DNA from: Naegleria gruberi
Taxonomy: Eukaryota
Length of the DNA stretch: 64,000 nucleotides
Assembly: GCA_000004985.1 (NCBI GenBank)
Contig: GG738855.1
Reading direction: 5' to 3' (one strand)
In this document: piece after piece, positions 17,671-24,811 of the stretch
Position numbering within the stretch: the first letter of the stretch is position 1
Layout: every line of letters starts with the position of its first letter
Program-made: the position numbers and the translations under genes
Notes under the pieces: model-generated
Database searches by the model: none
Told to the model about the DNA's origin: nothing
The model's input: the letters and a program-made list of their open reading frames with translations, nothing else

Positions 17671-19938
17671 ATGCTTCAAAAATCAACAAGAAGAATTTCA
17701 TCACTTTATGCTGGTTGTGGTCGTATTTCATCAACACCATCATCATCGGGAGTTGTACTCAACACTAATAGTTCAATCAAAATAATTAACCATCAATACA
17801 GATGTTATAATAATCATTTGGCAAAATTAAATCGTCTATCGGAATTATCAAATAATAACAAGAAACAATTTAAAAATCATCGTGATAGACAATATCAACC
17901 AATGGATAACATTGAAACACCAAAGGAAGTAAAGAATGATGTAACTACAGAATCCTATACTAAAATATTGAAAAAGTTCTTCTTAAAGGTTCACCCTGAC
18001 TTTTTCCAACAAGATCCACCAAAACAACAACAAAACAAGGAGTCCTTCTCAAAATTGAACGAACTTTTAAATTGGACTAACGAATATACCCAATTAACAC
18101 TTGATAATAAGAATTTGAATGAAGAGGAAATAGCTGACCTGGAAAAGAGATTGAATAGACTTGGTCCTATTCCAAGCGTTGATGAATCATTTGTTTTCTA
18201 TGTTAAGGAAACTGGAAGACAAAAATCTGAACCATTTAGAATTGAAGTTTTGTTTTCTTTACCAAAGAAGGTTCAATTCAATGGAAAATTAAAGAGTAGA
18301 TTGATTTTAACTCAACGTTTGGAAGAATTAGTAACTTCACTTTTGGAAAAATCAAAAATCATAACTGCTGAGGAAGCTAAAGCAAGAAGAGACATTGCTT
18401 TGGAACAATACAGAGAAATGGAAGAGTCCGTGGGTTCAAAGGGTAAGAAGACCTATAAATCACTGAAAGAAGAGTTACGTATGGCTCTCCAAAATAATTT
18501 ACAAGGAGCAGTCAACCTTGAAAAATTAAGAAGAGGTGAAGAAGATGATGAAGAATGGTGGTGGGATAAAGACTTGCCATCCATTGAACACTTGGTTACA
18601 CACGGCATGCTCTTCTTCTCTAAGAATATTACAGCAGAACAAACCATCAAAGCTATGAATCAATTGAAGAATGGTCTTGGTGAGATGAGATATTATGAAT
18701 GGAGTGATATTCCATTAATGATTACAGAAAAAACTGGCAAGTATGCTGTAAATGATCCTGTTGATGGGTTCATTTGCATTCCTTATGACTTTACTCCATT
18801 CGATTTTGTCAAGGAAATCATTACCAACGAAAAGAACATGACACTCCTCGTTGAAAAACGTGAATTGACAAGAAAAAAGGCCGAAGCTATTCAAAACATT
18901 AGAGAAAAACTTATTGAAGAAGTTGGTTTCTCTGATTTAACCATTTCACCAGAATTGACCTCAGAAGAACTCTATACATTTATTGAAAACTTTGAAAAGA
19001 GATACTTAAGTAATGACAAGATGAAATTGTTACTGAAAGACCTCTGTATCATCATTGATAACAAGTATTCAGCAAGTCCAGATGGATACATTTCAATTCA
19101 TTGGAACTTTATGCACAATGGAAAGGACAATATGTTCGAATTTTTGAAAGATTTAGGAGCTCAAAAAATCAAGAATATCAAAGATATGGGAAGAACTCTC
19201 AGCAATCTTAAGAGAGCATGTGTTTCACTCGGTGAAGAACTCATTGATAAACTTAAATGTAAAGAACTCAATTTGACAACCTATGCCGATTTGAACGAAT
19301 CCAATATGAAACGGTATCAAACTCTCCCAGTTACCCACGAATATATGAAACGATTGAGAGAATGTTGCCTCTTCTTGGAACGTTATGATTGGAGCACACA
19401 TACTTTCTATTTGGTCAATACTTTGGATTTACCTAAAGGTTTCAAACTTCCACTCAAACAAGTTCCTCATGTCAAGACAGAGGCCGATGTTAAGAGTTTA
19501 ATGAGAAGAATGACAATATATGGTGATACTATCATTGATATGGGCGCCAGAGCAGTCTATATTCCTGTAAACTTTACTGAAAATCAATTGTTCGAAACAG
19601 TCAACAAATATTGGAAGATGATTGAAAAACCTCAATTGCAATTGGATGGTGATGATTTTACAGATGTTGTAGATCCTCAAGGATTCCAACAATATAGAAA
19701 TTTGGCCTCTGAACTCGTCAAACAAGCTGAGTTTATGCTGACAAAGAAGAGAGCAGAAAGATATCAACAATTGGCTGAATTCCTCAACAGTCTTGAAGAT
19801 CAACAATTGTATGGTAAGGGTGCCAATAGTATTATGGAAGCAGCACTAGATAGACAAGAAGATGAAAGATATATCAATCTGTATCGTACTTGGTTCAGAA
19901 TTAGAGATATTCCATTAGATGTTTTTGAAACTCAATAA
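17671..19938 (+). CDS. Hypothetical protein with mitochondrial-presequence-like N-terminus and a J-domain-like HPD segment
   Basis: ATG at 17671, only 39 bp after the RhoGEF stop on the same strand. N-terminus MLQKSTRRISSLYAGCGRISS. Segment ..YTKILKKFFLKVHPDFFQQD..FSKLNELL has an HPD tripeptide in a J-like context. No confident family assignment. Confidence 0.5.
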   Translation: MLQKSTRRISSLYAGCGRISSTPSSSGVVLNTNSSIKIINHQYRCYNNHLAKLNRLSELSNNNKKQFKNHRDRQYQPMDNIETPKEVKNDVTTESYTKILKKFFLKVHPDFFQQDPPKQQQNKESFSKLNELLNWTNEYTQLTLDNKNLNEEEIADLEKRLNRLGPIPSVDESFVFYVKETGRQKSEPFRIEVLFSLPKKVQFNGKLKSRLILTQRLEELVTSLLEKSKIITAEEAKARRDIALEQYREMEESVGSKGKKTYKSLKEELRMALQNNLQGAVNLEKLRRGEEDDEEWWWDKDLPSIEHLVTHGMLFFSKNITAEQTIKAMNQLKNGLGEMRYYEWSDIPLMITEKTGKYAVNDPVDGFICIPYDFTPFDFVKEIITNEKNMTLLVEKRELTRKKAEAIQNIREKLIEEVGFSDLTISPELTSEELYTFIENFEKRYLSNDKMKLLLKDLCIIIDNKYSASPDGYISIHWNFMHNGKDNMFEFLKDLGAQKIKNIKDMGRTLSNLKRACVSLGEELIDKLKCKELNLTTYADLNESNMKRYQTLPVTHEYMKRLRECCLFLERYDWSTHTFYLVNTLDLPKGFKLPLKQVPHVKTEADVKSLMRRMTIYGDTIIDMGARAVYIPVNFTENQLFETVNKYWKMIEKPQLQLDGDDFTDVVDPQGFQQYRNLASELVKQAEFMLTKKRAERYQQLAEFLNSLEDQQLYGKGANSIMEAALDRQEDERYINLYRTWFRIRDIPLDVFETQ

Positions 19939-19944
19939 ATATAT

Positions 19945-22182
19945 TTATTTCACCAAGTCCAAATAGTTTCCAGAATTATTATCAATATACTTGACCGAAC
20001 AAGACAAACAAGGAAGCAAAATTAAGGGAAGAGGAAGCAAAAACAATGTGGCAAACCCAAAAGAGTACTGTTCTGGATAAGCAATGATAATGGCATGATG
20101 AACGAATAAACAAATCAGACTACACAGTACGGTAATGTACATGTTAATGTACAAACAACGTTTGGTTTTCGAATAGAGAGCTCTACACTCCAAGCAACAC
20201 CACAAAAAGGCAATAAATATCGTTCCAGCAAACAAGAGAAACTCTACTACAAATAGTGGAATCATAGCCACTGCCCAATCAATCTCTGACTCAATAGAAA
20301 ATTGATGAGTAATCATGATTGAACACAGCATACTATAACAAAATGCCACTATTAAAATGATAGAGTTGCAAGTAGAAGTGAGCTTGGAAATCACTGTTCT
20401 GAATTTGATACTTCTCACAATCAACCAAATAAAACAATAAATCAGCATGATTGTCGAAAGTCCACCAAAAACGGCAAACAAATACCATGGAGATTGACTG
20501 AATTGAGAATGAGGCAGACACAAGTACAAATTCCACACAAGTGCAAAAACAATTCCACAAATAGATAAGAGTAACAATCCAATACATGACATGACACTAT
20601 CAAAAAACATCTTCCTCAAACTCAAGATATTCCTCTGTTTTTCCCTTCTCTTACTGTTATTCCTGAGCGCAATTCCAAGTTTCCTCGCTGAAAGTCTCAA
20701 CTCTATTATGGACGATACGAGAATATTAATCATTCCACAATAGAGTGGAAAGAATACCACAATCCAACTCCACTCATTCTCATAATCAATACCAACATTC
20801 ATCAACACTCCCTTAATGGAGAATCCCAATATGAAACATGTGAAAAAGATGTAAACCAAGGGTGCAGAAAATACAAAGTGAATAGAAGATAGCCCCTCAA
20901 TGTCATCCAAAATGAGTTGCTCTGATAGTGGAATAGTTGTGAAACGATCTGATTTTTTCTTTTCAATCTTTCTAAATATGTCAATTCCAAATTGTTTGAC
21001 TTTCTTTTCAGTTTTCAAACATTCACAATAACAATCCTTCTCGAAAATAATATCATTCACTCCCTCAATTGTTACCGATTTGTACTTTTTAAACATAGAT
21101 GGAGGTATCTGAACAGTTGATTCCTCGCTATCACAATCTGATTCATTAATTAGTGTCAATATTTCCATTTCTTCCTCTTCAGAAACATATTCTTCTGAGG
21201 TAAGAGTTTCTGATAATTGATGATCAATCAGAGCAGTTTGGCTAGCACCACTATTATTCGAAAACTCATCCATTTCAATTGAAATTACCTCCTGATGGTT
21301 TCTCTCACCACGTGGAGATTCAATATCCTCAATAAATTCCATAATTTTTGGTGGTGAAAAACATGAATTTTCTATTTTACAAACTCCTCCCAAGTCCAAT
21401 AGAGAAGGTTTCGTATTCACCTTCTTTCCATTCGACATTAAATAATTTAAATGATATTGACCTAAATTTCCACCCTTCTTCCTATTGAAAAAGTAATTCT
21501 TAACTGCCAATATTCTTCTCTTTACAACTTTTTCCTGCACATAAATATCAAAATCCTTAAAGTATAATAATTTCAATTCTCGTATCTTGATTTGATATAA
21601 TCTATTCCAAAAACGTTGTTCTCTATCCAGAAAATTGTACCACATTGAACAAGTATGTGATAAATTGACCATTGTCAAAGAATCATCCAAAAACTCTGAA
21701 ATAATCATCAAAATATCATTTGCAATAATATTCTCAAAATTATGCCATTCAACAGGTTTCAATCGTTGATTATTATTACGATGACGATGATGATGATGAT
21801 TTGCACCATCCAATATAATTGTTCCTTCCTCCTCCGAATCATCATTTCTATTTTCCATTATTATTGTTGTGGTGGTGTTGTGATTGTTGTTGTTATATGA
21901 AGAACTGAGGGCGTGAAAAATTCTGGCAATTGGTGATTTGGTATTGGTTCGTTGTTGATTGTTTATAATGGGAGAAGGTGGCTGGTCAGTTTGGATTGTG
22001 ATATGTTCTTCATCAACATCATGTCTTTCCATCAATAATTGATTACGAGATTGACTAACATGAGTAGTGACAGGTATTGGTGAGTCATCTTCGGAGAGGA
22101 GAGATTCAGAGTTTGCAAAACCAATTTCCGAAGTTTGAATTTGATGGTTGGATTTATTGGTGGATGATCGTTTTCTAGTCAT
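19945..22182 (-). CDS. F-box-like domain protein with long low-complexity N-terminus and C-terminal multipass transmembrane domain (paralogue of 34997..37813)
   Basis: ATG at 22182 (MTRKRSSTNKSNHQIQT). Poly-His/Asn tract. F-box-like segment NDILMIISEFLDDSLTMVNLSHTCSMWYNFLDREQRFW. At least 8 predicted TM helices in the C-terminal 350 aa. Intronless. Confidence 0.55.
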   Translation of the reverse strand: MTRKRSSTNKSNHQIQTSEIGFANSESLLSEDDSPIPVTTHVSQSRNQLLMERHDVDEEHITIQTDQPPSPIINNQQRTNTKSPIARIFHALSSSYNNNNHNTTTTIIMENRNDDSEEEGTIILDGANHHHHRHRNNNQRLKPVEWHNFENIIANDILMIISEFLDDSLTMVNLSHTCSMWYNFLDREQRFWNRLYQIKIRELKLLYFKDFDIYVQEKVVKRRILAVKNYFFNRKKGGNLGQYHLNYLMSNGKKVNTKPSLLDLGGVCKIENSCFSPPKIMEFIEDIESPRGERNHQEVISIEMDEFSNNSGASQTALIDHQLSETLTSEEYVSEEEEMEILTLINESDCDSEESTVQIPPSMFKKYKSVTIEGVNDIIFEKDCYCECLKTEKKVKQFGIDIFRKIEKKKSDRFTTIPLSEQLILDDIEGLSSIHFVFSAPLVYIFFTCFILGFSIKGVLMNVGIDYENEWSWIVVFFPLYCGMINILVSSIIELRLSARKLGIALRNNSKRREKQRNILSLRKMFFDSVMSCIGLLLLSICGIVFALVWNLYLCLPHSQFSQSPWYLFAVFGGLSTIMLIYCFIWLIVRSIKFRTVISKLTSTCNSIILIVAFCYSMLCSIMITHQFSIESEIDWAVAMIPLFVVEFLLFAGTIFIAFLWCCLECRALYSKTKRCLYINMYITVLCSLICLFVHHAIIIAYPEQYSFGFATLFLLPLPLILLPCLSCSVKYIDNNSGNYLDLVK

Positions 22183-22289
22183 TTTTTTAATGTCGTTTCC
22201 ACCGAGATGACAAATGAAAACTTGTTTTAAAAGATGTTTGGTTGACCTCAGTTTTATGAACCAAATTATGAACTTCTTAACATCATAAC
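22134..22289. repeat. Copy A of a roughly 150-bp imperfect direct repeat (first codons plus 5' flank of the F-box/TM gene); partner at 23718..23840
   Basis: Shared blocks by eye: GAATTTGATG..TTTATTGG(T/C)GGA(T/A)GATCGTTTTCT(A/T)GTCATTT(T/C)TTTAAT(G/A)TCGTTTC..AAAAGATGTTTGG(T/C)TGA..CCAAAT(T/C)AT(G/A)AAC..CATCATAAC. About 80% identity with small indels. Confidence 0.6.
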
Positions 22290-22325
22290 TATTTGTATTC
22301 TTAATTTTGTAAACAAGTTCTTTGA

Positions 22326-23609
22326 TTGAATTTAAAAAAAATGCTCAAACGTTTCAACAAATTTCCTCTCAAAATGATCATCTTGCCCTCTGGATACACA
22401 CCTACGCTCCGACAATCACATTCCAATCAAAATGTTGAAAACAACTCCTCCTCCTACCTCAACAATCTTCAAAATATGATCAATGAGGCTTGTTATTCAG
22501 ATGTTGTTGGATCCTATCTCAAAACTGAATTGGTGGATGCCTACATGCAAAAGAATCCCTTCCCAAATAATCAATCAATAATGGAGGAGGGAGTCACACG
22601 TTTAGGATATCTTTTGAAATATTCCAATGACAATGTTAAGAGAAATAAGAATCTTGTTAGTTCTGCTTTGAATGATGAATATCAAAATGAGGTGTTTGAA
22701 TTTTCACATGAATCACTGCGATGTGACAAGTCATTTATTATTGAGAATGTCATTGGAAAGTGTCATGTAATATTACCTTACTTGTGTGATGAATTAAAAA
22801 GAGACAAGGAATTAATCTTGAAAATTATAGAAAGAAATTGTCGTGACTTGTACTATGCCCCTGATGAATTGAAAAGTGACAGGGATATTATTGCAATGGC
22901 AGGTAGAACGAATTTGATGGTCGCTTATGAAAATGGTTCCAAAGAAATACAGCAAGACAGAGAATTCTGGAAGGATTTAATGTCATCAAAATGTTGCAGT
23001 TTTGTTTTTGGAATCCCATTTCCCTTAAATAACGATTTGGAGATGATGAATATTGCTGTGGAGCGTAATTCATTTTTTGCAATTAGTTCAACTTCGAATG
23101 AATTAAGAAATGATCGAGAGCTCATATTAAAAGCAGTGAAATTGGATGGATGGGCTCTCAAGTGGGCATCTGTTGAATTGCAAGATGATTTTGAGATTGT
23201 TTTGGAAGCTGTTAAATGTACTGGGCTTGCTTTTGAGTATGCTTCTGAAAAATTGAGAAATAATGAGATTATTACAATGGAGGCAGTGAAAACATATCCA
23301 AATGCACTATATCATACTCCAACATTGTATGATAATTGGCAGATTGTCATGACAGCTGTCAAAGTGAATGGATGGGCTCTCAAGTGGGCGTCTGATAAAT
23401 TACAAGGAGATTTTGAAATTGCTTTGGAAGCTGTCAAATCAAATGGTGAAGCTCTCCAGTTTGCATCTAAGGAATTGAGAAGTAATAAGATGATTGTAAT
23501 GGAGGCAGTAAAACAGAATGAATTTTCCATCAGATTTGCTTCTGAAGAGCTTCAAAATGATAGTGAAGTTGTAGCTGCTTCTAGAAAATACAGAATATCT
23601 AAAATGTGA
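22326..23609 (+). CDS. DUF4116-type tandem-repeat protein (about 30-aa repeats D.E..L.AVK.NG.AL..AS.EL..D), intronless
   Basis: ATG at 22326. At least 8 tandem units, e.g. DRELILKAVKLDGWALKWASVELQDDFEIVLEAVKCTGLAFEYASEKLRNNEIITMEAVK / WQIVMTAVKVNGWALKWASDKLQGDFEIALEAVKSNGEALQFASKELRSNKMIVMEAVKQN. Near-identical DNA blocks lie within the gene (about 23140-23170 vs 23360-23395). Confidence 0.6.
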   Translation: MNLKKMLKRFNKFPLKMIILPSGYTPTLRQSHSNQNVENNSSSYLNNLQNMINEACYSDVVGSYLKTELVDAYMQKNPFPNNQSIMEEGVTRLGYLLKYSNDNVKRNKNLVSSALNDEYQNEVFEFSHESLRCDKSFIIENVIGKCHVILPYLCDELKRDKELILKIIERNCRDLYYAPDELKSDRDIIAMAGRTNLMVAYENGSKEIQQDREFWKDLMSSKCCSFVFGIPFPLNNDLEMMNIAVERNSFFAISSTSNELRNDRELILKAVKLDGWALKWASVELQDDFEIVLEAVKCTGLAFEYASEKLRNNEIITMEAVKTYPNALYHTPTLYDNWQIVMTAVKVNGWALKWASDKLQGDFEIALEAVKSNGEALQFASKELRSNKMIVMEAVKQNEFSIRFASEELQNDSEVVAASRKYRISKM

Positions 23610-23717
23610 AATTAACTCAAAAAATACCATGTTTCATCCAATCTCAGTTAGAGTTTGTTGCATCCTTTTTGGAATCTTCCTCTACATTTACACAAGAGAG
23701 TTGTTTGTGATTAATAA

Positions 23718-23840
23718 TGAATTTGATGATTTATTGGCGGAAGATCGTTTTCTTGTCATTTCTTTAATATCGTTTCTGTGACAAGTGAAATCTTCAAAAG
23801 ATGTTTGGCTGATGGTTATTATTGGTTACCAAATCATAAC
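23718..23840. pseudogene. Copy B of the direct repeat: truncated duplicate of the 5' end and promoter of the F-box/TM gene (minus strand reads MTRKRSSANKSSNSLLITNNSLV*)
   Basis: The reverse strand at about 23760-23690 encodes MTRKRSSANKSS.., versus MTRKRSSTNKSN.. for the intact gene at 22182. It stops after 23 codons. Located in the 3'-3' spacer after the DUF4116 gene. Confidence 0.55.
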
Positions 23841-23899: not shown

Positions 23900-24811
23900 T
23901 TAGTCCAATTCAAATTTGTAATCGAGATCAGGACGTCTTTCTGAAATGTCACCCTCAAATTTAAGCAATTGTTTTTTGACTGACGTCTTTTTATCCAAAG
24001 GTTGATATCTTTGATAAGCTCCAATTCTCAAATCTTGTGAAACATATGATGGCTCATTATAGTCATTCTTTGGAACAATTAGAGGTGCCTTATTACTCGA
24101 CTTCAAATATCTTTGTTGAATGGATTGAGTCGTTTCTTGTCTTTCATTTTCAACAGTTTGATTATTAGACATCTTTTTCAATTGATCCTGTTCAAATTCC
24201 TTTAATTGTCTTCCGACCAACTTTAAATGAGATCTACGCATAGCTTGATACTCAATTGGAAGAGGCTTCCTTTCAGAATCCAAATCTTTCAACATTGTTT
24301 GTCTATCAGCAGAAGGAGCTGCCATAACTAATGGTGAACGACCTGTTGGTATATTTGTAAATAATTCCTCAGTTCCCTCTGCATAGAATCTATTGTAAGG
24401 TCTCCACGATACAAATGACCTAGTATGTTTTGAATCCTCATCCTCATCATCAATTCCTCTAACTGCTTTATCAATTTCATCACTCAAAAACATGGCACTT
24501 CTCAAAACTCTCAAATCAGTAACCTTTCCTCCAGTATCTCTGAAGAAATCTTCCAGTGCTCTTTTCTGTTTCTCTCTATTGGTTATTCTCCTCTCCAAGG
24601 CTTGTTGCTCTGCAGATTTTGCAAAGAGTGATTCCGAACTTGTAAGTGCTGGACTTCCAATAATTACTCTCTTTACATGTTCCGAAAGTAAATGTCTCAA
24701 GAAACGATAGGAAAGCAAACTGACAAGCGATGCTATCAGTGATATCTATTAAATGATTGCAATTTTAATTATCTTTCCGATTAATAATATACTTACAAGT
24801 GATGATCCCAT
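23900..24811 (-). CDS. Hypothetical protein, 2 exons (about 24811-24797 and 24745-23900)
   Basis: Upstream mini-exon ATGGGATCATCACTT is followed by GTAAGT...TTTAATAG and joins in frame to ..ISLIASLVSLLSYRFLRHLLSEHVKR.. The track ORF starts at a TTG. Product is basic/charged (..RRITNREKQKRALEDFFRDTGGKVTDLRVLRSAMFLSDEID..). No family recognised. Confidence 0.4.

What the first reader, a model, noticed from the sequence alone, without database searches (positions are those of the whole stretch)
22134..23840. DUF4116-repeat gene flanked by about 150-bp imperfect direct repeats; downstream copy is a truncated 5' fragment of the neighbouring gene
The segment comprising the first roughly 50 nt of the F-box/TM gene CDS plus about 110 nt of its 5' flank (22134-22289) is repeated at 23718-23840. 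The two copies are in the same orientation at about 80% identity, on either side of the intronless DUF4116 gene (22326-23609). The downstream copy still encodes MTRKRSSANKSS.. before an early stop, so it looks like a gene-fragment pseudogene. This arrangement could be the scar of a tandem duplication followed by deletion. It could also mean the DUF4116 gene was inserted with target duplication. DUF4116 repeats are otherwise scattered among bacteria and some protists, so lateral origin is conceivable.
Basis: seen in the sequence. Interest (0 to 1): 0.6.

Follow-up and report, generated by a model that had tools for sequence, protein, structure and literature searches.

The report
Decayed duplicate of a gene start
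About 110-140 bp carrying the promoter-proximal DNA and first 16 codons of a Naegleria gruberi F-box membrane-protein gene was copied once to the far side of the neighbouring DUF4116 gene and has since decayed; it looks like an ordinary small duplication scar, with no sign of a mobile element and no positive evidence of gene transfer.

Summary
The repeat is real. Window 22136-22245 matches 23718-23812 in direct orientation: 84 of 95 aligned bases are identical, there are three indels, and E=2e-18 against the whole window. A weaker extension reaches about 22276/23842. It has two copies in the 64-kb window.

The window is Naegleria gruberi. Copy A is the working 5' end of a 745-codon F-box/8-TM gene (19945-22182, minus strand). 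Copy B keeps the ATG and 10 codons. A 5-nt deletion then shifts the frame, a stop follows at codon 24, and homology ends sharply after codon 16. B is therefore a dead promoter-plus-5'-CDS fragment.

An intact DUF4116 gene lies between the copies. Its composition is native and its family is expanded across Naegleria, so there is no positive evidence for lateral origin.

In Willaertia, N. fowleri, N. lovaniensis and a metagenomic relative, a NUFIP1 gene abuts this F-box gene. In N. gruberi it does not, so the locus is a lineage-specific breakpoint.

One genome cannot separate three origins:
- short-range copy of the fragment into the next spacer (favoured, about 0.4);
- DUF4116 insertion with a long target duplication (about 0.2);
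- tandem duplication plus deletion (about 0.15).

The intervening segment has no terminal repeats, and the repeat has no RNA signal and no evidence of function. This is an ordinary feature of low interest.

The parts
22136..22245 (-). Copy A, the functional original. It holds the first 16 codons (22136-22182) of the F-box/TM gene plus at least 63 nt of its 5' flank. A probable extension reaches about 22276.
   Evidence: The N-terminus M[ST]R.RS is shared with the orthologues P0124 and P0126.
23718..23812 (-). Copy B, the decayed duplicate of copy A. A probable extension reaches about 23842. It lies 108 nt after the DUF4116 stop codon and 57-87 nt after the stop codon of the 286-aa gene.
   Evidence: 88% identity over 95 aligned bases, three indels, Jukes-Cantor distance 0.126.
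23688..23759 (-). Relic reading frame of copy B: ATG, 10 conserved codons, a 5-nt deletion that shifts the frame, and a stop after 23 codons (MTRKRSSANKSSNSLLITNNSLV*).
   Evidence: and the alignments.
19945..22182 (-). Parent gene: a 745-codon single-exon ORF. It has an N-terminal low-complexity region, an F-box-like region around residues 150-195 (assigned by orthology) and about 8 hydrophobic segments (residues 431-726).
   Evidence: The reference model NAEGRDRAFT_47219 covers only codons 1-372.
22341..23609 (+). Intact DUF4116-repeat gene lying between the two copies. The annotated N. gruberi protein P0001 starts at 22374.
   Evidence: PF13475, E=1e-77, 6 units; 100% identity to an N. gruberi predicted protein; native composition.
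23900..24811 (-). The 286-aa gene whose 3' end abuts copy B. Exon 1 is 24811-24797, the 51-nt intron is 24796-24746, and exon 2 is 24745-23900. It has no Pfam match.
22246..23717 (.). Segment between the secure repeat copies (1472 bp): the DUF4116 gene with a 95-nt 5' flank and a 108-nt 3' flank. Its ends carry no terminal inverted repeats, no direct repeats and no poly(A) tract.
   Evidence: and the sequence.

Best explanation
General part (confidence about 0.9). Copy B is a non-functional, DNA-level partial duplicate of the 5' end of the N. gruberi F-box/multi-pass membrane gene. It comprises the promoter-proximal flank plus codons 1-16. It arose once in the N. gruberi lineage, at a locus whose ancestral gene order had already been broken, and has since decayed.

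Specific mechanism I commit to (confidence about 0.4). The F-box gene and the DUF4116 gene were already divergent neighbours sharing a 158-bp spacer. A break or stalled fork in the next non-coding spacer, between the convergent 3' ends of DUF4116 and the 286-aa gene, was repaired by copying about 100-140 bp from the nearby F-box 5' region as filler. This is a short-range templated insertion or template switch. Because the copy stops at codon 16 and lies between two gene ends, it had no coding use and drifted: about 12% substitutions, three indels and a frameshift.

Shown: the homology, its boundaries, the disablement of B, the intactness of all three flanking genes, and the lineage-specific loss of the NUFIP1 neighbour.

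Inferred: the direction and mechanism of copying, and the lack of function of B.
For: - The repeat is significant and unique in the window.
- B is truncated sharply after codon 16 and is frameshifted. A is the true start of a gene conserved in N. lovaniensis, N. fowleri, Willaertia and a metagenomic relative.
- Homology runs at least 63 nt upstream of the ATG, so the copy was made from DNA that included the flank.
- The DUF4116 ORF is intact. The nearest paralogue found among annotated N. gruberi proteins is 29% identical, so no recent donor copy was found. Its composition is native. Both points are what is expected if the gene was resident.
- The intervening segment has no TIR, direct-repeat or poly(A) ends.
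- Coding sequence fills nearly all of the surrounding DNA: the other spacer next to the parent gene is only 6 nt. The DUF4116/286-aa spacer is therefore the nearest place where a junk insertion could be tolerated (inference).
- Insertion of copied DNA, including genes and gene fragments, during double-strand-break repair is an established class of event (PMC3615480, which cites Wicker et al. 2010, PMC2928501). That locally templated insertions occur within a few kb of a break is from my own knowledge.
Against: - No ancestral (empty) site could be examined, so the polarity of the event is not shown.
- Microhomology at the junctions cannot be assessed without the ancestral sequence. None is visible at the one sharp junction.
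- The two copies bracket exactly one complete gene. That is also the pattern expected for an insertion with target duplication.
- The locus is a proven lineage-specific breakpoint, which makes a rearrangement-linked origin by staggered break plausible.
Confidence: 0.4

Rival explanations
1. Gene relocation with a long target-site duplication. The 286-aa gene and the F-box gene were once tandem neighbours separated by about 139 bp. A staggered break spanning F-box codon 16 to about -63/-94 was filled in on both sides, and a 1.44-1.47-kb segment carrying the DUF4116 gene was ligated in between. This duplicated the promoter, so the F-box gene survived.
For: - The direct repeats flank exactly one complete gene with UTR-sized flanks.
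- Under this model the ancestral spacer of 139 nt matches the 96-199 nt NUFIP1-to-F-box spacers of relatives.
- The F-box 5' flank is a lineage-specific breakpoint in N. gruberi.
- Staggered breaks that duplicate hundreds of bp of unique sequence, including gene fragments, at rearrangement breakpoints are documented in Drosophila, with a median of 321 bp (PMC1885836).
Against: - No donor or paralogue of similar age was found: the best among annotated N. gruberi proteins is 29% identical. The move would have to be cut-and-paste, or the donor was lost.
- A random 1.45-kb insert would rarely be exactly one intact, still-functional gene (inference).
- The insert has no terminal repeats and no poly(A).
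- The right-hand repeat boundary is not sharp.
- The Drosophila precedent gives inverted duplications, not direct ones.
Confidence: 0.2
2. Tandem duplication followed by deletion. A 1582-bp unit (22136-23717: the F-box 5' fragment, DUF4116 and its 3' flank) duplicated head to tail. The second DUF4116 copy was later deleted, leaving only the start of the second unit, which is copy B.
For: - The copy spacing of 1577 bp and the direct orientation fit the start of a second tandem unit.
- This gene region does duplicate in tandem: the DUF4116 coding sequence contains a 222-nt in-frame tandem duplication.
- DUF4116 genes form tandem arrays in N. lovaniensis.
Against: - It needs two events.
- The deletion would have to remove the whole second gene, about 1.4 kb, cleanly. 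Its left end would fall in a window of about 64-95 nt and its right end within 57-87 nt of the next gene's stop codon. No DUF4116 remnant is left.
Confidence: 0.15
3. Copy B is functional. It could be a second promoter or alternative first exon of the F-box gene, or a promoter driving antisense transcription across the DUF4116 gene.
For: - B keeps the ATG context and the TTTCA(C/T)TTGTCA stretch just upstream. A loosely similar stretch is seen upstream of the N. fowleri and N. lovaniensis orthologues.
- A GTAAAT follows the relic ORF.
Against: - B carries three indels and a frameshift.
- An intron from B to the F-box gene would be about 1.5 kb and would enclose a whole gene, whereas the one intron seen here is 51 nt.
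- No conservation data or transcript data are available.
- There is no structured-RNA signal.
Confidence: 0.05
4. The repeat is a copy of a dispersed element, a promoter motif shared by many genes, or a chance match in AT-rich spacer.
For: The window has 35% GC, and the distal part of the alignment is not significant on its own.
Against: - E=2e-18, and 0 of 2000 shuffles reach the score.
- There are only two copies in 64 kb.
- The F-box protein has a single N. gruberi cluster among 1.84 billion representatives.
- Seven related loci give only low-complexity chance hits.
- A metagenome scan found nothing.
Confidence: 0.03

Closest known systems
Partial (fragmentary) gene duplicates, also called unprocessed pseudogene fragments, as catalogued among young duplicates in animal and plant genomes (general knowledge)
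   Same: A short DNA-level copy of one end of a gene, including its non-coding flank. It lies close to the parent, is truncated and frameshifted, and is decaying neutrally.
   Different: It is very short (about 110-140 bp, 16 codons). It is separated from its parent by one complete unrelated gene rather than lying directly in tandem.
Insertion of copied DNA during double-strand-break repair; gene and gene-fragment movement that erodes collinearity in grasses (PMC3615480; Wicker et al. 2010, PMC2928501, as cited there). Locally templated 'filler' insertions within a few kb of a break are from my own knowledge.
   Same: A unique-sequence fragment copied into a non-coding site without transposon signatures, at a locus that has lost ancestral gene order.
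   Different: Donor and acceptor are only 1.4-1.6 kb apart on the same strand. Junction microhomology cannot be checked because no ancestral site is available.
Breakpoint duplications from staggered breaks (Drosophila inversions; PMC1885836)
   Same: A duplication of a few hundred bp of non-repetitive sequence, including the 5' end of a gene, at a lineage-specific rearrangement breakpoint. The copies diverge by substitutions and small deletions.
   Different: Those duplications are inverted and flank inversions. Here the copies are direct and flank a 1.45-kb single-gene segment, which would require an insertion rather than an inversion.
Transposon target-site duplication
   Same: Direct repeats on either side of a discrete segment.
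   Different: The length (at least 95-110 bp) far exceeds typical target-site duplications. The enclosed segment has no terminal inverted repeats, LTRs, poly(A) or transposase. It is an ordinary cellular repeat-protein gene.

Membership tests
Gene-fragment (unprocessed) pseudogene | Significant nucleotide homology to part of a functional parent gene | tested here: met
   E=2e-18; 88% identity over 95 aligned bases. The parent is a 745-codon ORF with orthologues in four other heteroloboseans.
Gene-fragment (unprocessed) pseudogene | Disabling lesions (truncation, frameshift, premature stop) | tested here: met
   Homology ends after codon 16. A 5-nt deletion follows codon 10. A stop occurs after 23 codons.
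Gene-fragment (unprocessed) pseudogene | The copy includes non-coding flank and has no poly(A), so it is DNA-level and not a retrocopy | tested here: met
   Homology continues at least 63 nt upstream of the ATG, and no A-tract lies at either end. Whether this extends beyond the transcription start is not known.
Gene-fragment (unprocessed) pseudogene | Not expressed or not functional | not testable with these tools
   No transcript data. The only indications are the absence of an Rfam match and of structure.
Insertion with target-site duplication (mobile element or relocated gene) | Direct repeats immediately flanking the inserted segment, with matching sharp ends | tested here: inconclusive
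   The orientation is direct and one boundary is sharp (22135|22136 and 23717|23718). The other boundary fades between 22245 and 22318.
Insertion with target-site duplication (mobile element or relocated gene) | Element termini (TIR, LTR, poly(A)) or mobility genes in the insert | tested here: not met
   The TIR and direct-repeat tests are at shuffle level. The only gene in the insert is a DUF4116 repeat protein.
Insertion with target-site duplication (mobile element or relocated gene) | An empty site in a related genome, or a donor copy elsewhere | tested here: inconclusive
   The relatives available share no microsynteny here. The nearest paralogue among annotated N. gruberi proteins is 29% identical. 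The full N. gruberi genome was not searchable.
Tandem segmental duplication | Two head-to-tail units of like content | tested here: not met
   Only the first 95-125 nt of a putative second unit exist. There is no second DUF4116 copy. A later deletion would have to be assumed.
Dispersed repeat family | Many copies at unrelated loci | tested here: inconclusive
   There are two copies in 64 kb, none in about 120 kb of related loci apart from low-complexity chance hits, and none in the metagenome scan. The rest of the N. gruberi genome could not be searched.
DUF4116 (Pfam PF13475) repeat proteins (the middle gene) | Pfam score above the gathering threshold, with multiple units | tested here: met
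   256 bits against a cut-off of 24.9; 6 units.
F-box proteins (the parent gene) | An F-box or F-box-like Pfam domain above threshold | tested here: inconclusive
   The N. gruberi protein has no hit even at E<=1. The Willaertia orthologue scores 33.5 bits against a cut-off of 24.3. The metagenomic and N. lovaniensis orthologues fall below the cut-off. The aligned region is 44-52% identical.
Recent lateral gene transfer (the DUF4116 gene) | Atypical composition, absence from sister lineages, and nesting within a donor clade | tested here: inconclusive
   Two of the three features were tested and not met. GC 0.348, GC3 0.319 and codon-usage correlation 0.84 lie within the window's range. The family is present in N. 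gruberi, N. fowleri and N. lovaniensis. Nesting cannot be tested because the repeat units give no usable phylogenetic signal. Lateral origin therefore has no positive evidence but is not disproved.

The most novel reading that the evidence does not exclude
The DUF4116 gene moved as a single-gene cassette into the 5' end of the F-box gene through a staggered break of at least 110 bp. The fill-in duplicated the promoter and so rescued the target gene. DUF4116 genes would then be recurrently relocated at synteny breakpoints in Naegleria. One hint: a degenerate DUF4116-like gene sits exactly where N. fowleri and N. lovaniensis collinearity ends, next to the DUF4460 orthologue. The duplicated promoter B might still fire, giving antisense transcription over DUF4116.
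Probability: 0.1. Interest if true: 0.45.

Novelty: new member of a known kind. Interest (0 to 1): 0.2.

Why it matters
The wider importance is small. The fragment is one more example of the gene-fragment debris that local duplication leaves in a compact protist genome.

It has three modest uses:
- It marks a lineage-specific rearrangement at a gene pair (NUFIP1 and the F-box membrane gene) that is otherwise adjacent from Willaertia to Naegleria.
- If the insertion model were right, about 63-140 bp of 5' flank would be enough to run the F-box gene. Under the other models the pair only delimits a candidate promoter segment. Naegleria promoters are poorly known as far as I am aware.
- It exposes a truncated reference gene model, NAEGRDRAFT_47219.

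Tried and rejected
- Orthologous-locus comparison. I fetched the N. fowleri and N. lovaniensis loci of the DUF4460 neighbour (L002, L003) and the F-box orthologue loci of N. lovaniensis, N. fowleri, Willaertia and a metagenomic relative (L004-L007). Only the single query genes are shared with the window. The 286-aa gene and the window's DUF4116 gene have no counterpart there, so no empty site or two-copy site could be read.
- The 286-aa gene is not the NUFIP1 orthologue.
- N. fowleri DUF4116-like gene beside DUF4460. I tested it as a possible orthologue of the window's DUF4116 gene. It shows no special affinity and hits generic units of many family members equally.
- Exact-protein look-ups of the window's own proteins and of P0001 and P0010 were not on record.
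- The first homology search with the full F-box protein returned nothing, because low-complexity words filled the candidate list. The exhaustive representative search solved this.
- RNA-gene reading: no Rfam family, no tRNA, and folding z-scores between -1.1 and +0.5.
- Transposon reading: the intervening segment has no terminal repeats.
- A metagenome scan with a 29-base core pattern gave 0 hits.
- A 34-nt match of copy A in N. fowleri L002 (E=5e-4) lies in an A-rich low-complexity tract and was dismissed.
- Literature: no paper links DUF4116 with Naegleria. A 2023 14-genome Naegleria pangenome study included only one N. gruberi genome, NEG-M (PMC9928731).


Full report
ORGANISM AND GENES

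The window is Naegleria gruberi. The DUF4116 ORF is 100% identical to an N. gruberi predicted protein on a 613-kb contig (P0001). The first 372 codons of the neighbouring ORF equal NAEGRDRAFT_47219 (P0123). The window has 34.6% GC and is densely coding.

The genes around the finding are:
- a DUF4460/DUF4461 gene at 17671-19938 (+);
- a 745-codon ORF at 19945-22182 (-);
- the DUF4116 gene at 22341-23609 (+), with PF13475 x6 and E=1e-77;
- a 286-aa gene at 24811-23900 (-), with one 51-nt intron.

The 745-codon protein has no Pfam hit of its own. It does have clear orthologues in N. lovaniensis (42% identity), N. fowleri, Willaertia magna and a metagenomic heterolobosean. The Willaertia orthologue passes Pfam's F-box-like threshold (33.5 bits). 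The C-terminal half has about eight hydrophobic segments. 'F-box/TM gene' is therefore a fair label by orthology.

THE OBSERVATION

The repeat is real.
- blastn of either copy against the whole window finds the other copy: 22136-22245 against 23718-23812, 76% over 110 columns including gaps, E=2e-18. Nothing else scores better than E=0.01.
- The ungapped core is 49 nt at 90% identity, with a spacing of 1577 bp.
- In the secure part, 84 of 95 aligned bases agree and there are three indels of 5, 6 and 4 nt. The alignment score is 119 against 21+-4 for shuffles, and 0 of 2000 shuffles reach it.
- The Jukes-Cantor distance is 0.126. There are 3 mismatches in 42 coding positions and 8 in 53 upstream positions.
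- The left boundary (the 3' boundary in gene sense) is sharp, and the adjoining 100 nt are unrelated.
- The other boundary fades. A collinear block suggests that homology reaches about 22276/23842. The stretch beyond, to 22318/23891, is not significant on its own (108 of 2000 shuffles).
- A self-comparison of the whole window finds only two repeat pairs at E<1e-6: this one and a 222-nt in-frame tandem duplication inside the DUF4116 coding sequence.

WHAT THE COPIES ARE

On the minus strand, copy A starts the real gene with MTRKRSSTNKSNHQIQ.... The orthologues begin MSRSRSKSS... and MSTPRSAST..., so this is the ancestral start.

Copy B has its ATG at 23759 and ten matching codons. A 5-nt deletion then shifts the frame, and a stop follows after 23 codons. 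Homology ends after codon 16. Upstream of the ATG the copies stay aligned for at least 63 nt. B is therefore a DNA-level copy of the promoter-proximal flank plus the first 16 codons, and it is disabled.

Other readings were checked and not supported:
- It matches no RNA family and no tRNA, and it folds no better than shuffled sequence.
- The 1.47-kb segment between the copies has no terminal inverted or direct repeats and no poly(A) tract.

COMPARATIVE CONTEXT

I fetched the orthologous loci of the F-box gene. In N. lovaniensis, N. fowleri, the metagenomic relative and Willaertia, the gene immediately upstream is a NUFIP1-domain gene. It is in tandem in the first three, with spacers of 96-199 nt, and divergent in Willaertia. 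No NUFIP1 homologue lies anywhere in the 64-kb N. gruberi window. The N. gruberi lineage has therefore broken this otherwise deeply conserved pair right at the F-box promoter.

Beyond that, N. gruberi shares no microsynteny with the other species here. Only the query gene itself matches in each locus. The 286-aa gene has no counterpart in any fetched locus, and the window's DUF4116 gene has no orthologue there, only family members. A 2023 14-genome Naegleria pangenome study included only NEG-M for N. gruberi (PMC9928731).

LATERAL ORIGIN OF DUF4116

There is no positive evidence for it, although the data cannot disprove it.
- The gene's GC (0.348), GC3 (0.319) and codon usage (r=0.84 to the pooled window ORFs) are ordinary for the window.
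- The family is present in all three Naegleria genomes, and three copies stand in tandem in N. lovaniensis.
- The higher scores of some metagenomic proteins reflect longer arrays of canonical units, and the unique N-terminal 70 residues match nothing. Phylogeny of such repeats is not informative.
- The nearest paralogue found among annotated N. gruberi proteins is 29% identical, so no recent duplicate from elsewhere was found.

MECHANISM

Three histories give the present order (286-aa gene, B, DUF4116 on the opposite strand, A, F-box gene).

(a) Short-range copy. The F-box and DUF4116 genes were already divergent neighbours, and about 100-140 bp of the F-box 5' region was copied into the next spacer during repair or replication. 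Insertion of copied DNA at break-repair sites is well documented (PMC3615480).

(b) Insertion of a DUF4116 cassette at a staggered break, which duplicated the target. Breakpoint duplications of this size are known from Drosophila, although there they are inverted (PMC1885836).

(c) A 1582-bp tandem duplication followed by clean deletion of the second DUF4116 copy.

I favour (a), at about 0.4. It needs one event, no lost donor, and no lucky capture of exactly one intact gene. The spacer that received B is also the nearest non-coding site, since the only other spacer beside the parent gene is 6 nt long.

History (b), at about 0.2, gains from the proven breakpoint status of the F-box promoter and from the neat bracketing of one gene. 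It lacks a donor, terminal signatures and a sharp second boundary.

History (c), at about 0.15, needs two events and a very tidy deletion.

All three share the same general conclusion, which I hold at about 0.9: B is a decaying relic of one local duplication event. A functional reading of B, as an alternative promoter, a first exon or an antisense driver, is not excluded but has no support (about 0.05).

VERDICT

The 'gene-fragment pseudogene' interpretation is supported. Lateral transfer has no positive evidence. The feature is an ordinary kind of duplication debris and of low general interest.

Noticed in passing
window 23132-23294 and 23354-23515: An in-frame 222-nt (74-codon) tandem duplication inside the DUF4116 coding sequence, 79% identical at the nucleotide level. 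Together with the A/B pair it is the only repeat in the whole 64-kb window at E<1e-6.
   Followed up: partly
window 19945-22182 (-): The reference gene model NAEGRDRAFT_47219 (380 aa) covers only codons 1-372 of a 745-codon uninterrupted ORF. Orthologues show that the 8-TM C-terminal half belongs to the same protein, so the N. gruberi model looks truncated. The N. fowleri model FDP41_002513 also fails to translate from its locus as called.
   Followed up: partly
L004 8694-12367; L005 8662-12612; L006 6529-9941; L007 1774-5028: A NUFIP1-domain gene is the immediate upstream neighbour of the F-box/TM orthologue in N. lovaniensis, N. fowleri, Willaertia magna and a metagenomic heterolobosean. The pair is broken only in N. 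gruberi, where no NUFIP1 homologue lies in the window.
   Followed up: yes
window 19938-19945; L002 12470-16117; L003 12425-16071: The DUF4460/DUF4461 gene and the F-box gene converge with only 6 nt between their stop codons. The 3' flank of the DUF4460 orthologue differs in all three Naegleria species. N. fowleri / N. lovaniensis collinearity ends exactly after that gene, and N. fowleri has a degenerate DUF4116-like gene there.
   Followed up: partly
window 24746-24796 (-): The 286-aa gene has a 15-nt first exon (MGSSL) followed by a 51-nt GTAAGT...TAG intron. This model is my own reading of the sequence, and the protein has no Pfam match.
   Followed up: partly
L001 680-6718: Three DUF4116 genes (603, 516 and 526 aa) stand in tandem on one strand in N. 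lovaniensis. Only the middle one carries a precomputed DUF4116 Pfam label, but tblastn shows that all three are family members.
   Followed up: no
window 22183-22344 (-): The reading frame of the F-box gene stays open for 162 nt upstream of its ATG, with no in-frame start codon. This is probably chance, and the orthologues support the ATG at 22182.
   Followed up: no
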